Below, piece by piece: positions 4,143 to 58,698 of a stretch of DNA of 64,000 bases (positions within the stretch are counted from its first letter, which is position 1; every line of letters starts with the position of its first letter). The stretch lies in NCBI GenBank assembly GCA_964016885.1, contig OZ024754.1, positions 4,960,001-5,024,000 of the forward strand, written 5' to 3'. A program made the translations under genes and the position numbers. A model generated the notes under the pieces. It was given only the letters and a program-made list of their open reading frames with translations. It was not told where the DNA came from and did no database searches. Source of the DNA: Eledone cirrhosa. Its lineage: Eukaryota.

Positions 4143-4198
4143 GTTTAATATGGAAATGGCTTCTACAGGACTAGAACTGTTTCATTCAAAAGAAATCA
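4143..4198 (-). mobile_element. HHR element family HH-A, truncated at the catalytic core
   Basis: Reverse strand TGA-tttc-tttt-gaat-GAAA-cagttctagtcctg-TA-gaagcc, embedded in (TA)n. Confidence 0.8.
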
Positions 4199-4782: not shown

Positions 4783-5086
4783 TAAATATGTGTATATATA
4801 TATATATGATGATGATATATATATATATATATATTGAAACATGGCTCTTACAAGACTAGACCTATTTCCTTTGTAAATAATATGTCTTAATGAATTATGT
4901 ACCTTACATTCATTGTGGTTCTTTCAATTTCAAATGAGACCTTTAACGACAATTATATATTTTATATAGAAATGACTTCTACAGGTCTAGAACTGTTTCA
5001 TTTCTATGTAACATAAAAGATTCTTATACTTTACCAATGTATTGAGTACTTTTTTTTAAACTGTGTTCACATGGTGACATAACTCT

Positions 5087-11013: not shown

Positions 11014-11224
11014 GCGAGGGAAAAGTGGTAAGGAACCAGGTGGACCATAACGCACCAAAGTACTCAATACTTAGGGTAGTAGAGAGGGTAATAGGAGTAA
11101 GTAAGACCCCGACGGCTGAGCTCAAGCCGTTTCGACGGCTAATTCTGTACAGAATTAGTACAGAATTCAGTACAGAATTAGCCGTCGAAACGGCTTGAGC
11201 TCAGCTGTCGGGGTCTTACTTACT

Positions 11225-19667: not shown

Positions 19668-19865
19668 ATGGTGGCTGCCAACTCGTTTTCGACTACGGCC
19701 ACTACTTTATATCCATGTAGGAGAACCCCTACCGATGCGCTGAACGAGTGTGACTTTTTAGTCCAGCCAGCGACTTGAAAACTCTGGTACAAACACTACA
19801 CTTGTGACAATTATTGACACATAGTGCTGGCCCCATGGTACCATGTAACAAGTGCAGAGAGATCT
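19668..19865 (-). mobile_element. 3' end of an RTE-type LINE with C-terminal C2H2 finger
   Basis: Translates CHKCSVCTRVFKSLAGLKSHTRSAHR*, with a short 3' UTR running into (TA)n. Confidence 0.65.
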
Positions 19866-19878
19866 CCATATATATATA

Positions 19879-20041
19879 TAAGAGAGTATTGAAGTTTGCT
19901 TGAAGCATTGTGGAACAATAAGTAAATATCTTTAAGTCGTTTGGAAGCCTCGACAATGCAAATGGGTAAATCTCCGGGTAACAAGGTCCGGTTACCCGGA
20001 GATTTACCCATTTGCATTGTCGAGGCTTCCAAACGACTTAA

Positions 20042-21052: not shown

Positions 21053-21349
<297 letters not shown>

Positions 21350-23986: not shown

Positions 23987-24188
23987 AGGAACGAGTAGGA
24001 CCCCGACAGCTGAGCTCAAGCCGTTTCGACGGCTAATTCTGGACTAATTTAGTCCAGAATTAGCCGTCGAAACGGCTTGAGCTCAGCCGTCGGGGTCCTA
24101 CTCGTTCCTATTACCCACTCTACTACCCTAAGTATTGAGTACTTTGGTGCGTTATGGTCCACCTGGTTCCTTACCACATTTCCTTCGT
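23987..24188 (+). mobile_element. HH-B element with inverted 5' arm in (TA)n
   Basis: Short inverted arm 23987-24047 and long arm 24049-24188. GAAA at 24069-24072, GTC triplet at 24089-24091. Confidence 0.88.
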
Positions 24189-25830: not shown

Positions 25831-26240
25831 CGAAATGTTAACAAATGAAAAATATTCTCATAATCAAAATATATACTTTATTATATACATTTCAAATGTA
25901 CTGTGTTGTTTTTTCAGTACGTCCTCATCAGACAAAATATGATTTGATATATGATATACCACTACGCTACGGTCTTGATTATTGGTTATATATATAATAG
26001 TAATAAACGAAAGATATATATTTATATCCTCTCTATTTATTTTATTATATATATTTCGATGACGCAAAGTTTTATGTAGAACATAAACCAGAACATGTCC
26101 TCCTCAAACAAAATACATGTGAGATGTATAGTTTTTCATGATATGCTTGTATGCTGGTAGCCGAACGAGCTGGACAGATCGGTGACCACCAAGCATATGA
26201 CTAGAAAAAAAATATATATATACATATAGAGAGAGAGAGA

Positions 26241-26287
26241 GAAATAGCTTCTACAGGACTAGAACCGTTTCATTCGTAGGAAATCAT
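26241..26287 (-). mobile_element. HH-A fragment truncated at ATGA
   Basis: Reverse strand ATGA-tttc-ctac-gaat-GAAA-cggttctagtcctg-TA-gaagct. Confidence 0.8.
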
Positions 26288-28664: not shown

Positions 28665-28789
28665 GTTTATCCCGAGTTCAATCGGGGGTAACCACAGCAA
28701 GTAAGGTACTCAATACATAGCAGAGTATAAATATTTAATATAGAAATGGCTTCTACAGGACTAGAACTGTTTCATTCGAGAGAAATCAT
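28665..28789 (-). mobile_element. HH-A element with full 3' tail, truncated at ATGA
   Basis: Reverse strand ATGA-tttc-tctc-gaat-GAAA...GTA-gaagccatttctatATTAAA...gtattgagtacc...gattgaactcgggat, in (TA)n. Confidence 0.85.
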
Positions 28790-35275: not shown

Positions 35276-35495
35276 AGGAACCAGTAAGACCCCGACAGCT
35301 GAGCTCAAGCCGTTTCGACGGCTACTTCTGGACTATATATATGTGTGTGTGTGTGTTTATCCCGGCTTCAATCGGGGGTAACCACAGTAACTAAGGTACT
35401 CAATACATAGCAGAGTATAAATATTTAATATAGAAAAGGCTTCCCAGGGCTTCATGATGATTTCTCCCGAATTAAACAGTTCTAGTCCTGTAGAA
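35276..35495. mobile_element. Adjacent HH-B fragment and rearranged HH-A copy
   Basis: HH-B arm at 35276-35334. HH-A tail (minus) at 35355-35443 fused to a plus-strand HHR with core mutations (gggcttc-ATGATGA-tttctcccgaat-TAAA-cagttctagtcctg-TA-gaa). Confidence 0.8.
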
Positions 35496-37080: not shown

Positions 37081-37460
37081 ATATATATGTTATTCCGGGT
37101 TCATTCGAGGGTAACCACAGTAAGTAAAGTACTCAATACATAGCAGAGTATAAATGTGTTAATATATATATAGGGAGAGTGTATGTATATGTAATGTTAA
37201 ATATCTTTTTCTTCCTCATATCCTCTCTCTCTCTCTCATTCTCTCTCACTATAAACAGGAAGACTACGAGAATTGTCGTCTCAGCTGTGAACTGCTTCTC
37301 TTTCTTTTTGTTTATATATGTAGGTGAATCTCTCTCTCTCTATATATATATATATATAGTACGGTGAAATACTGGTGTTGGTACGAAATCAAACACTTTG
37401 CACAGGCAGAGTGTATATAATAGAAAAAATGAGGAAGTTTTGTTTACACACACACACACA

Positions 37461-41141: not shown

Positions 41142-41303
41142 TGTTCAATCGAGGGTTACCGCAGTAGGTAAGGTACTCAATACAGCAGAGTATAAATATT
41201 TAGTATAGAAATGGCTTCTACAGGACTAGAACTGTTTCATTCAGAAGAAATCATCAGGAAGCCCTAAATGAAACAGTTCTAGTCTGGTAGAAGCCATTTC
41301 TAT
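41142..41303 (-). mobile_element. HH-A element with complete HHR and inverted arm
   Basis: Long arm 41142-41264 and short inverted arm 41267-41303, flanked by AT-rich microsatellite. Confidence 0.88.
41213..41263 (-). ncRNA. Type I hammerhead ribozyme motif (complete core)
   Basis: GGCTTC-CTGATGA-T-TTC-TTCT-GAA-T-GAAA-CAG-TTCTAGTC-CTG-TA-GAAGCC. Stems I-III all pair; predicted cleavage after GUA. Confidence 0.85.
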
Positions 41304-48950: not shown

Positions 48951-48994
48951 TCCAAGAACAATTGTTTCACCTTAGTCGGATCATCAGCTCAAGA
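48951..48994 (-). ncRNA. Minimal type I hammerhead ribozyme motif (HH-D)
   Basis: TCTTGAG-CTGATGA-T-CC-GACTAA-GG-T-GAAA-C-AATT-G-TT-CTTGGA. Stem III has 2 bp and a palindromic AATT loop; stem I is weak (G-U pairs, one bulge). Confidence 0.6.
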
Positions 48995-49342
48995 TTGATA
49001 AAAAAAAAGTACCAGTCCAGTACTGGGGTCAATTCTTCCTCTAATATCTCTTTCGCATTTCCTCTCTCTCTTCTTTTGTGTTCAGGTCTAGAGAGAGGAT
49101 GGACTCTACCAAATTTAAATGTTATAATAGTGTCCCCTATTACACCATACATACATGTATACATAAGGGTCCATCCATACATGTATGTGTATTTGTATAT
49201 GTGTGTGTATATATATATATATATATTTATATACACATAGATATCATACATATATAGTCAATCGACTTTTGTCAAATCGGACCGAGGAAACAATGTTTCC
49301 ATTGGTCTTTCCAGTTGCTAATACTTTCTATCGGTCGCAACT

Positions 49343-50850: not shown

Positions 50851-51544
50851 AAATGTACCTGTCTTGATTAACCCTTTAACATTTAAACCGGCCATTTCCG
50901 GCCACAATTCTTGTACCTATTCCTGTTCAAACTGGCTGTAACTGGCTGCTCATACTGACATTAAGGTATTGTTCTCAATATAAATAATATCAAAATCTCA
51001 TAGATTCAATATTATGTGAGATAATTATATAAGATAAAGCCATTACCACAAAAATACAATAGTATATAGAGAGTAATGTAAACATTAAAGGGCATATTGG
51101 CAGAATCGTTAGAGCATCGGATCATATATTTTGTGATATTTGTTCTGGTTCTTAGATTTCTAAGTTCAAATCCTGTTGTGGCCTACTTAACCCTACAGCC
51201 TGGCCCTTGTGTGCTTTTTTACTGGAGTCTACTCTATTGCAAGCAATCAGATCTGAATCCATTCCAAGGTCTCAGAGACCTTGGAATGGATTCAGGCCAC
51301 AATTTTGAGGATATCTTCTGCCAGTCTCAGAGACCTTGGAAAGGGTCCTGTTCCCCTCCCAGAGTAAGCAGTCAGGAAACAAATATTTGGAAGGTTTAAT
51401 GAAATAACTAAATTTTGTAAACAATTAGGGTAAATCTTTGAAGTAATACATTTCTCATGGAACCAGTATATGGTGCTACACCGTCAGATCAAACCCAGGA
51501 CACCATGGTTCCGAATAAAGCTTCTTAACCACACAGATATGTTT

Positions 51545-52400
51545 GTAAAGTGGTTGTGTAGGTGTCACAGCAAAAATCTCCCAGTGCACAATGTAAAGTG
51601 GTCATGTAGGTGTCACAGCAAAAAACTCCCAGTGCACAATGTAAAGTGGTCATGTAGGTGTCACAACAAAAATCTCCCAGTCCACAATGTAAACTGGTCA
51701 TGTAGGTGTCACAGCAAAAAACTCCCAGTGCACAATGTAAAGTGGTCATGTAGGTGTCACAGCAAAAATCTCCCAGTGCACAATGTAAAGTGGTCATGTA
51801 GGTGTCACAGCAAAAATCTCCCAGTGCACAATGTAAACTGGTCATGTAGGTGTCACAACAAAAAACTCCCAGTGCACAATGTAAAGTGGTCATGTAGGTG
51901 TCACAGCAAAAAACTCCCAGTGCACAATGTAAAGTGGTCATGTAGGTGTCACAGCAAAAATCTCCCAGTGCACAATGTAAACTGGTCATGTAGGTGTCAC
52001 AACAAAAAACTCACAGTGCACAATGTAAACTGGTCATGTAGGTGTCACAGCAAAAAACTCCCAGTGCACAATGTAAAGTGGTCATGTAGGTGTCACAGCA
52101 AAAATCTCCCAGTGCACAATGTAAAGTGGTCATGTAGGTGTCACAACAAAAATCTCCCAGTGCACAATGTAAACTGGTCATGTAGGTGTCACAGCAAAAA
52201 ACTCCCAGTGCACAATGTAAAGTGGTCATGTAGGTGTCACAACAAAAATCTCCCAGTGCACAATGTAAAGTGGTCATGTAGGTGTCACAACAAAAATCTC
52301 CCAGTCCACAATGTAAAATGGTCGTGTAGGTGTCACAACAAAAATCTCTTAGCCCACACTGTAAAGTGTTTGTGTAGGTTTCACAACAAAAAACTCCCAG
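51545..52400 (+). repeat. 45-bp tandem array (~19 copies), SINE-derived
   Basis: Unit gtaaagtggtcatgtaggtgtcacagcaaaaaactcccagtgcacaat, with no spacers. Confidence 0.97.
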
Positions 52401-52452
52401 ACTCTGGAACTAGCTGTTGAAATGGCTAGAGCTCTGTCGCCGGGGATCCTGA

Positions 52453-53183: not shown

Positions 53184-53262
<79 letters not shown>

Positions 53263-53356
53263 AGGTTGAATTAATGGATGTAACAACCATTAGTGATAGT
53301 AAGATGATGGTTTCTGTCACCACTGTAAATCTTCATGTTCAGTCATGTTATAAATG

Positions 53357-54335
53357 CTCTCACACACCTCTCTCTACATCTCTCACACACCTCTCTCTAC
53401 ATCTCTCACACACCTCTCTCTACATCTCTCACACACCTCTCTCACACACCTCTCTCTACATCTCTCACACACCTCTCTCTACATCTCTCACACACCTCTC
53501 TCACACACCTCTCTCTACATCTCTCACACACCTCTCTCTACATCTCTCACACACCTCTCTCTACATCTCTCACACACCTCTCTCTACATCTCTCACACAC
53601 CTCTCTCTACATCTCTCACACACCTCTCTCTACATCTCTCACACATCTCTCTCTACATCTCTCACACACCTCTCTCTACATCTCTCACACACCTCTCTCT
53701 CTACATCTCTCACACACCTCTCTCTACATCTCTCACTCACCTCTCTCTCTACATCTCTCTACCACTCTCTCTCTACATCTCTCTACAACTCTCTCTACAT
53801 CTCTCACACATCTCTCTCTCTACATCTCTCACACACCTCTCTCTACATCTCTCACACACCTCTCTCTACATCTCTCACACACCTCTCTCTACATCTCTCA
53901 CACACCTCTCTCTACATCTCTCACACACCTCTCTCTACATCTCTCACACACCTCTCTCTACATCTCTCACACATCTCTCTCTCTACATCTCTCACACATC
54001 TCTCTCTCTACATCTCTCACACACCTCTCTCTACATCTCTCACACACCTCTCTCTACATCTCTCACACACCTCTCTCTACATCTCTCACACACCTCTCTC
54101 TACATCTCTCACACACCTCTCTCTACATCTCTCACACACCTCTCTCTACATCTCTCACACACCTCTCTCTACATCTCTCACACACCTCTCTCTACATCTC
54201 TCACACACCTCTCTCTACATCTCTCACACACCTCTCTCTACATCTCTCACACACCTCTCTCTACATCTCTCTACAACTCTCTCTCTCTACATCTCTCTAC
54301 CACTCTCTCTCTCTACCACTCTCTCTCTACCCCTC
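53357..54335. repeat. 23-bp CT-rich minisatellite
   Basis: Unit cacacacctctctctacatctct, about 40 copies. Confidence 0.97.
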
Positions 54336-54624
54336 TCTCTCTCTCTCTTGCTTGTTTTCTATTATGAAATGTTGTTTTTTCTTCTCTTTTCTTATCTTGT
54401 TTCACTTTCACCAACACACACACATGTACATGTGGTACTCCTGTGTGTGTGTGTATATATATATATATACGTGTGTGTGTGTGTGTGGTGTCCTAGCATG
54501 GCCACAATTTTACTGAAACCGGTAAAAGTATATATATATATAGCCATATATTCTTTTACCGATTTCAGTCATACTGTGGCCATGCTGGGGCACCACACAC
54601 ACATGAGTGTGTGTGTGTGTGAAT

Positions 54625-58429: not shown

Positions 58430-58469
<40 letters not shown>

Positions 58470-58470
58470 G

Positions 58471-58654
58471 TAGGTCCCGGGTTGAGTCGGGAATAACCAC
58501 AGTAAGTAAGGTACTCAATACATGGCAGAGTAAAATTTTTTTATTTTATAGAAGGAGCTTCTACAGGACTAGTACTGTTTCATTCAGATGAAATCTTCAT
58601 GAGCTTCCTGAAGATTTCATCTGAATGAAACAGTACTAGTCCTGTAGAAGCTTC

Positions 58655-58660
<6 letters not shown>
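58471..58660 (-). mobile_element. HH-A subfamily element with two HHR copies in inverted orientation
   Basis: Long arm 58471-58600 (minus) and short arm 58601-58660 (plus), with (TA)n on both sides. Confidence 0.88.
58602..58652 (+). ncRNA. Type I hammerhead ribozyme motif (complete core)
   Basis: AGCTTC-CTGAAGA-T-TTC-ATCT-GAA-T-GAAA-CAG-TACTAGTC-CTG-TA-GAAGCT. Predicted cleavage 3' of 58646. Confidence 0.85.

Positions 58661-58698
<38 letters not shown>

What the first reader, a model, noticed from the sequence alone, without database searches (positions are those of the whole stretch)
58551..58660. Complete HHR paired with its own antisense copy, with a compensatory change in stem I
The plus-strand HHR at 58602-58652 is intact. 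Immediately upstream is an inverted copy that breaks off at C3 of the core. Stem I is AGCTTC/GAAGCT here and GGCTTC/GAAGCC at 41213-41263, a compensatory substitution. Loop II varies freely among six copies (TTCT, ATCT, TCTC, CTAC, TTTT, TCCC) while the TTC/GAA stem is fixed. This argues for selection on RNA structure in the source elements. Inference: in a read-through transcript the ~50-bp hairpin would sequester the ribozyme, so inversion could neutralise cleavage of a host pre-mRNA.
Basis: partly seen in the sequence, partly recalled or inferred. Interest (0 to 1): 0.75.

Follow-up and report, generated by a model that had tools for sequence, protein, structure and literature searches.

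The report
Mirror-image Penelope retrotransposon stub
This ribozyme-plus-mirror-copy is one of many tiny stubs of a Penelope-type jumping gene in this genome, likely made when its enzyme copied the capped start of one RNA onto both ends of a DNA break, so the hairpin is probably a by-product of copying and not a safety switch for the ribozyme.

Summary
In detail: a type I hammerhead motif (58602-58652) follows its own antisense copy, forming a 52-bp hairpin. It belongs to a 195-bp insertion (58466-58660) in (TA)n: two head-to-head ends of a Penelope-like element whose ORF has the Hydra-clade motifs. The family has 2,171 exact ribozyme cores genome-wide, sister families 18,364. Of 100 sampled arms, 53 start within -1..+7 of the first base of stem I, about 29 nt below a conserved TATA box, often with an extra G. 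Paired arms are almost always one long plus one short, share subfamily marks, and have varied junctions. Best reading: both target strands prime on an uncut element RNA and run off its capped 5' end (inferred; no RNA data). Stem I covariation is real (two pairs) but only a few events. The 'neutralising inversion' idea is unsupported: lone ribozymes are common, the monomer is predicted to fold poorly, and no host gene was found. Head-to-head Penelope ends are known; the run-off reading differs from the published self-priming model. The scan's own unchecked notes reached the same reading in other genomes.

The parts
58466..58599 (-). Long arm: element positions +141 back to +8 (numbering: +1 = first base of stem I); carries the ~80-nt 'tail'; lacks C3 and the 5' strand of stem I
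   Evidence: outer 3 bases are shared with the (TA)n flank
58600..58601 (.). Two junction bases (T, G) found neither upstream of +1 in the parent (C at -1) nor in the other arm; G is a candidate cap-derived base (inferred); a single G-to-T change from a commoner junction is an alternative
58602..58660 (+). Short arm: +1 to +59/60, ending in TA microhomology
58602..58652 (+). Type I minimal hammerhead motif; core complete, U-U at 10.1/11.1, near-palindromic stem III/loop III; predicted cut 3' of 58646
58548..58660 (.). 52-bp hairpin formed by the overlap of the two arms
58432..58468 (.). (TA)n target, left flank
58661..58694 (.). (TA)n target, right flank
41158..41263 (-). Older sister-subfamily long arm with whole ribozyme (GGCTTC/GAAGCC, loop TTCT), starting at +1 with a G before it
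41264..41303 (+). Its junction and truncated short partner arm (from about +23)
35360..35495 (.). Decayed head-to-head pair: long arm stops at about +46, partner starts at +1 (loop TCCC, C3 mutated)
28670..28787 (-). Single long arm, truncated in the core (loop TCTC)
26240..26285 (-). Single short arm (loop CTAC)
4159..4197 (-). Single short arm (loop TTTT)
4962..5002 (-). Further decayed arm
37095..37168 (-). Tail-only fragment of the same group

Best explanation
This is a 195-bp stub of a Penelope-like retrotransposon with Hydra-clade motifs, made of two head-to-head copies of the element's ribozyme-bearing end, likely formed when both strands of a cut (TA)n site primed reverse transcription on one element RNA and ran off its presumed capped 5' end. 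Shown: the parent (RT + GIY-YIG ORF starting at +184, 4.26-kb unit, ribozyme in both pLTRs), two outer end-points (+141 and +60-76), the pile-up of inner ends at +1, a TATA box at -29/-30, an extra G before +1, and shared subfamily marks in both arms. Inferred: +1 is the transcription start; priming happened on the 5' pLTR copy; the two cDNAs were joined by microhomology or a few untemplated bases; the ribozyme works for the parent element, probably as a dimer or with the element's protein. The hairpin would block cleavage, but as a by-product.
For: Parent: full-length copy L124; motifs RWR, DKT, YRDD, CxCx5C, YIG, CxxC/CxH, kept in 95-120 of 120 homologues depending on motif. Inner ends: 54 of 100 arms start at -1..+7 (53 after removing one internal deletion), 7 at -44..-4 (4 independent), 39 further upstream; the same edge appears in subfamilies whose +1..+4 is not self-complementary. 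TATA box 21-24 nt above +1 and a pyrimidine-purine step at -1/+1 kept across subfamilies while the spacer diverges. Extra G: 10 of 30 arms at -1 versus 1 of 30 at -2 and 1 of 30 at -3; in 100 listed rows with T at -2, -1 was C 52, G 42, A 4, T 2, with 30 G explained by neither template nor partner arm, and 6 junctions have a G on both arms (counted by eye). An extra 5' G marks the cap in full-length L1 insertions (PMC11702581, passages). Outer ends: +141/144 in 48, +60-76 in 51 of 100; pairs are long+short in 35 of 36 young and 42 of 45 older pairs, never long+long. Same source: loop II identical in 17 of 18 pairs within one subfamily, shuffle mean 7.7, 0 of 10,000. Template runs into the ORF: 11 of 21 loci are a piece reaching +170..+353 joined in front of another copy, 6 of them at +1/+2. 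Template uncut: 97 of 100 long arms cross the cut site (by eye). The Anolis PLE cuts and extends both strands, starts internally at two sites about 85-92 nt past its ribozyme cut, and uses uncut RNA (PMC11167929).
Against: No RNA data: the start site and cap are inferred. C, the templated -1 base, is the commonest base at -1; much is supplied by the partner arm, but some starts may lie at -1, and 9 single-G junctions are ambiguous for that reason. The sample needed an exact core from C3, so ends 3' of +7 were invisible; one search shows 20 of 100 long arms ending at +8..+34. L124's own TATA box has a substitution. Two tandem junctions use template from -12 and -32, so some RNAs start upstream of +1. 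D. virilis Penelope has a TATA-less internal promoter and an intron ending at helix I. Shared marks in short hairpins could also come from later arm-to-arm conversion. Samples are the first listed hits on the largest contigs, not random draws.
Confidence: 0.75

Rival explanations
1. Fold-back / self-priming: one cDNA (or an antisense template, as proposed for rotifer Penelope) turns back on itself at the stem I edge and the second arm is its copy.
For: Published model for head-to-head palindromes (PMC3846280, passages). Explains identical arms and perfect palindromes centred on AGCT.
Against: The short arm often holds sequence the long arm lacks: L036 long arm to -51, short arm from about -2256; L093, L074, L080; this copy too. 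Six junctions carry a non-templated G on both arms. An antisense template gives no reason for a G before +1 or for jumps into the ORF.
Confidence: 0.12
2. The shared edge is not the RNA start but a 3' splice site (CAG|C) or a stall at stem I.
For: The D. virilis intron ends at the 5' end of helix I (PMC4209133); the parent reads CAG at -1..+2.
Against: Most arms keep the AG that splicing would remove (36 of the 54 boundary arms start at -1, +1 or +2); no 5' exon is attached; G-start subfamilies lack the AG; an enzyme moving 3' to 5' has already opened stem I when it reaches +1 (reasoning).
Confidence: 0.06
3. The palindrome is itself a small mobile unit copied whole from a master hairpin.
For: All 40 scored best hits match the whole 191 bp at 97-100%. 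Another agent's unchecked note (e1-8671701) reports edited hairpins written back into DNA.
Against: Those hits were chosen by score. In the unbiased sample 26 junctions show 20 sequences, and the same asymmetric junction occurs in both polarities (4 vs 2); short-arm ends vary from +60 to +76.
Confidence: 0.04
4. One reading: inversion is favoured because it silences the ribozyme in host pre-mRNA.
For: The hairpin abolishes the active fold in prediction.
Against: Whole ribozymes without an adjacent antisense arm are common (39 of 100 arms continue upstream); the monomer is predicted 0.14% folded; mismatch rates in 46 partner arms are core 14/322, stems 9/552, free sites 15/552, no sign of selection after insertion; a perfect 52-bp hairpin has its own likely costs (inference).
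Confidence: 0.03

Closest known systems
EN+ Penelope-like element insertions with inverted 5'-truncated pLTR and optional tail (Craig et al. 2021, PMC8557442, passages and section 11; Arkhipova et al. 2013, PMC3846280, passages)
   Same: Head-to-head pLTRs, palindrome at the junction, tail on one arm only, microsatellite target, TATA and initiator-like sequence in the pLTR.
   Different: Reduced to two arms of 60 and 140 nt; tail 65-80 nt, not 30-40; inner ends pile up at +1 with an extra G, pointing to a sense capped template and not to self-priming on an antisense template.
Hydra clade of C-terminal EN+ PLEs (PMC8557442, section 11 read)
   Same: RW[K/R], DKT, CxCx5C linker, no CCHH, CxxC and CxH around E/N, (TA)n target, ribozyme present.
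   Different: Unit 4.26 kb with a long microsatellite-rich 3' region (described families mostly under 3 kb); RWR in this family; no tree against named Hydra sequences was built.
Minimal type I hammerheads of metazoan PLEs (Cervera and De la Pena 2014, PMC4209133, parts 1-2 of 4)
   Same: In pLTRs, palindromic helix III suited to dimers, many sequence families with covariation, pairs on opposite strands.
   Different: U-U in place of G10.1-C11.1; stem II only 3 bp (7-8 bp in the Schistosoma motifs); opposite-strand pairs here abut (0-40 nt) as well as lying hundreds of bases apart.
Poseidon of Anolis carolinensis in vitro (Frangieh et al. 2024, PMC11167929, parts 1-2 of 4)
   Same: Both strands cut and extended, AT-rich target, two internal start sites bounding the tail, distal site about 90 nt 3' of the ribozyme cut (96 here), uncut RNA used.
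   Different: Different clade; the parts read do not treat inverted insertions or the RNA 5' end.
LINE-1 twin priming (PMC12016303, passages)
   Same: Two cDNAs primed from both target strands, opposite orientations, may overlap.
   Different: There it is a minority outcome (about 20%) with a poly(A)-primed arm and short overlap (median 12 bp); here both start sites are fixed and the arms overlap almost wholly.
Metazoan non-LTR retrozymes (preprint 10.64898/2026.07.22.740005, part 1 of 5)
   Same: Non-coding, type I hammerhead, PLE-derived.
   Different: Retrozymes are tandem direct repeats; this is an inverted pair that maps base for base on an autonomous element's end.

Membership tests
EN+ Penelope-like element | Single ORF with RT and C-terminal GIY-YIG endonuclease in the parent | tested here: met
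   754-aa open frame in L104 with YRDD and YIG motifs; 412 homologues at E<=1e-10, unnamed; weak GIY-YIG hits below cut-off in 2 of 5 homologues. Pfam and PDB found nothing for the query itself, so the call rests on motifs and architecture.
EN+ Penelope-like element | pLTRs from partial tandem, inverted 5'-truncated copy, tail at one end | tested here: met
   L124: inverted short arm + 5' pLTR (-148..+140) + ORF + 3' pLTR; long+short rule.
Hydra clade | RWK motif, DKT for DKG, CxCx5C linker, no CCHH, CxxC and CxH in EN | tested here: met
   (RWR here); homologues RW[KR] 114/120, DKT 108/120, DKG 2/120, CxCx5C 108/120, two Cys before YIG 1/100.
Hydra clade | Insertion into (TA)n | tested here: met
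Hydra clade | Phylogenetic placement with named Hydra RTs | not tested
   No named reference sequences were held; supplements of PMC8557442 not read.
Neptune clade | CX2-5CxxC linker and CCHH motif | tested here: not met
   Linker is CxCx5C; one Cys only before YIG.
Type I hammerhead ribozyme | Core C3 U4 G5 A6 G8 A9 G12 A13 A14 A15.1 U16.1 H17 and three helices | tested here: met
   (98% of cells paired in 12 sequences)
Type I hammerhead ribozyme | Conserved G10.1-C11.1 pair | tested here: not met
   U-U in all 12 aligned sequences; so filed as an atypical minimal motif, not a canonical hammerhead.
Type I hammerhead ribozyme | Self-cleavage | not testable with these tools
   Prediction only: monomer 0.14% folded; dimer fold -25.8 vs 2 x -9.8 kcal/mol.
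Non-LTR retrozyme | Tandem direct repeats, each with a hammerhead | tested here: not met
   Inverted pair in (TA)n.

The most novel reading that the evidence does not exclude
Penelope-type elements build their mirror ends by obligatory double priming: one particle extends both target strands from two fixed sites on the same uncut, capped sense RNA, and in this clade the ribozyme is the very first thing in the mRNA, so a cut at +45 would decap it. Thousands of stubs then record the transcription start, both priming sites and template jumps at base resolution, against the antisense self-priming model.
Probability: 0.6. Interest if true: 0.6.

Novelty: new member of a known kind. Interest (0 to 1): 0.42.

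Why it matters
How Penelope-like elements form their tandem and inverted ends is stated as open in Craig et al. 2021. These stubs give sharp, countable predictions (start site, cap G, long+short rule, same-RNA origin) that one 5' RACE and one in vitro reaction can test. They also place the ribozyme at the likely 5' end of the mRNA, which narrows what it can be for. For the host, the locus itself looks like neutral debris.

Tried and rejected
Rfam: no hammerhead family listed on the 186-bp stretch; hits were hairpin microRNA models below cut-off. RNA runs: no RNA holder listed, which is no evidence on expression. Three runs of one sample, contigs only, laid on the stretch: no piece spans it all, a few short contigs cross the centre, one with an extra A after 58601; weak support that such junctions exist outside the assembly, possibly the same sample, so not used further. 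Assembly artefact rejected mainly on the fixed asymmetry, many subfamilies and diverged arms in older copies. Host gene: 140 of 155 higher-complexity ORFs of 55 aa or more scanned with Pfam, no hit reached a cut-off; the family's ORF gave no tblastn hit in the window; intronic or intergenic status stays unknown. Protein atlas unavailable. Pfam and PDB blank for the ORF. My first clade call, Neptune, was wrong and is replaced by Hydra. Ribozyme cut site as the source of 5' ends: 3 of 100 long arms stop at +44-46, two of them explicable by TA microhomology, so rejected as the main edge. The regex classes misfiled a few arms; corrected by eye as stated. The binomial on cap G used an assumed background and is not relied on.

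Full report
Observation. The motif, its inverted copy, the break at C3, the 41213-41263 variant (minus strand) and the six loops are all in the sequence. The hairpin is 52 bp and far beyond chance. I number from +1 = 58602, the first base of stem I; the predicted cut is after +45 (58646).

The unit is larger than the finding. It runs 58466-58660 between two (TA)n tracts: a long antisense arm (+141 to +8), two extra bases, and a short sense arm (+1 to +59). The genome (3.0 Gb, animal-like) holds it many times: 40 of 40 scored candidates, out of 1,223, matched all 191 bp at 97-100%; an exact 26-nt core occurs 2,171 times and a sister-family core 18,364 times.

Parent. Many cores continue upstream into a long 3' region and an ORF. 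L124 is a whole insertion: inverted short arm, 5' pLTR, ATG at +184, frameshifted ORF, 3' pLTR, unit 4.26 kb. The ORF has RT and GIY-YIG motifs and the diagnostic set that Craig et al. give for the Hydra clade (section 11 read): RWR, DKT, CxCx5C, no CCHH, CxxC and CxH, also in most of 120 unnamed homologues. Pfam and PDB did not recognise it, and no tree was built.

Anatomy of insertions. I fetched the loci of the first 100 listed hits of each core pattern (plus loci from 11 and 36). Young family, 100 arms including one triplicated insertion: outer ends at +141/144 (48), +60-76 (51), +39 (1); inner ends at -1..+7 (54, one really an internal deletion), -44..-4 (7, four independent) or further up (39). 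That pattern hides ends 3' of +7, so I sampled again on downstream sequence (100 of 411 rows, by eye): 3 stop at +44-46, 11 at +11..+34, 9 at +8..+10, 9 at +5..+7, 68 reach +4 or beyond. So the edge is the 5' foot of stem I, not the cut site, and 97 of 100 templates were read across the cut. Head-to-head pairs are one long plus one short arm in 35 of 36 young and 42 of 45 older pairs (the 45 include three chance cross-pairings), never two long. Both arms share loop II in 36 of 45 pairs (shuffle mean 6.1) and 17 of 18 within one subfamily (mean 7.7; 0 of 10,000). Junctions are varied (20 sequences in 26) and occur in both polarities. Either arm can reach further upstream.

Why +1. A TATA box lies 21-24 nt above +1 in several subfamilies whose spacers differ, with C at -1 in most copies and a purine at +1. 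Copies starting at +1 often have a G where the parent has C: 10 of 30 against 1 of 30 at each of the next two positions. In 100 of 1,404 rows with T at -2 (by eye): C 52, G 42, A 4, T 2; dropping 4 rows where the partner arm supplies the G and 8 where it could be the partner's templated -1 leaves 30; 6 of 11 copies joined to simple repeats have G (5 of 10 without one in a GAT repeat); 6 junctions have a G on both arms. An extra G is the cap mark of full-length L1 insertions (PMC11702581, passages). In 11 of 21 loci that run on into the ORF, a piece ending at +170..+353 is joined in front of another copy, six times at +1/+2, as expected if the enzyme ran off +1 and jumped back on an RNA that continues into the ORF. 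Against: C remains the commonest -1 base, two jumps use template above +1, and no RNA run was available.

Mechanism (inferred). The endonuclease cuts both strands of (TA)n; one end primes at +141, the other in the A/T tract at +60-76, on the same RNA or RNAs of one source. On the 3' pLTR this gives long, randomly truncated inverted insertions; on the 5' pLTR both cDNAs run off the cap and are joined, giving this stub. It parallels the Anolis element in vitro (PMC11167929, parts 1-2 of 4) and L1 twin priming (PMC12016303, passages).

The ribozyme. Twelve hand-picked sequences (two window copies, ten upstream-intact copies) give 98% paired cells and two stem I pairs changed on both sides; the number of such pairs is not above shuffles (370 of 500), the covariation score is (0 of 500), and the tool warns that relatedness alone can do this. 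Stems II and III show no double change. The 10.1/11.1 pair is U-U, whereas G-C is described as highly conserved (PMC4209133, parts 1-2 of 4). The monomer is predicted to misfold, the dimer fold to be stable, in line with the low, dimer-dependent activity reported there. Conservation across masters suggests a role for the element; inserted copies show no sign of selection.

Host silencing. The hairpin would sequester the motif, but it arises from the insertion mechanism, unpaired ribozymes abound, and no host gene was identified.

What is known. Inverted 5'-truncated pLTRs with a tail and junction palindromes are published (PMC8557442 passages; PMC3846280 passages, which also notes TATA/initiator-like motifs and proposes self-priming on an antisense template); opposite-strand ribozyme pairs too. 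D. virilis Penelope has a TATA-less internal promoter (PMC2377424, passages). Retrozyme preprint: part 1 of 5. [quoted passage not shown] The scan's own unchecked notes, opened after my reading was written down (then 67, 74), reach the same reading in other genomes; they are not independent support.

Verdict. Real, well-formed, and an ordinary footprint of a known element class; the value lies in what the family's many copies say about the copying mechanism.

Noticed in passing
window ~11107-11215 and ~24001-24100; pieces at 21211, 27669, 32305, 35290: A second repeat family forms head-to-head palindromes in the same way; it carries GAAAC and a GTC triplet but no canonical core nearby. Other notes in this genome describe a scrambled hammerhead family that may be this one (not checked).
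   Followed up: no
window ~48955-49000 (-): Piece of a third hammerhead-like family (CTGATGA ... GAAAC) with a different stem II.
   Followed up: no
window 19732-20037 (-): Weak single C2H2 zinc-finger match, below Pfam cut-off.
   Followed up: no
L124 +1..+184: The ribozyme and two short upstream ATG-stop frames lie in the 183-nt leader before the main ATG; a cut at +45 would remove the presumed cap.
   Followed up: partly
junction rows: Arms starting at +2 are preceded by T in 9 of 15 cases, as if an untemplated A was added to the cDNA or misread opposite the first base.
   Followed up: partly
L047, L034:8413-9501: Related PLE ORFs carry long low-complexity inserts between RT and endonuclease, reminiscent of the N-rich inserts described in rotifer Penelope.
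   Followed up: no
L228, L240, L241, L244, L245: Short partial tandems built by template jumps from +1 to +170..+332 show in miniature how pLTR tandems could form.
   Followed up: partly
window 51434-52420 and 53184-54516: Long tandem minisatellite arrays giving open low-complexity frames.
   Followed up: no
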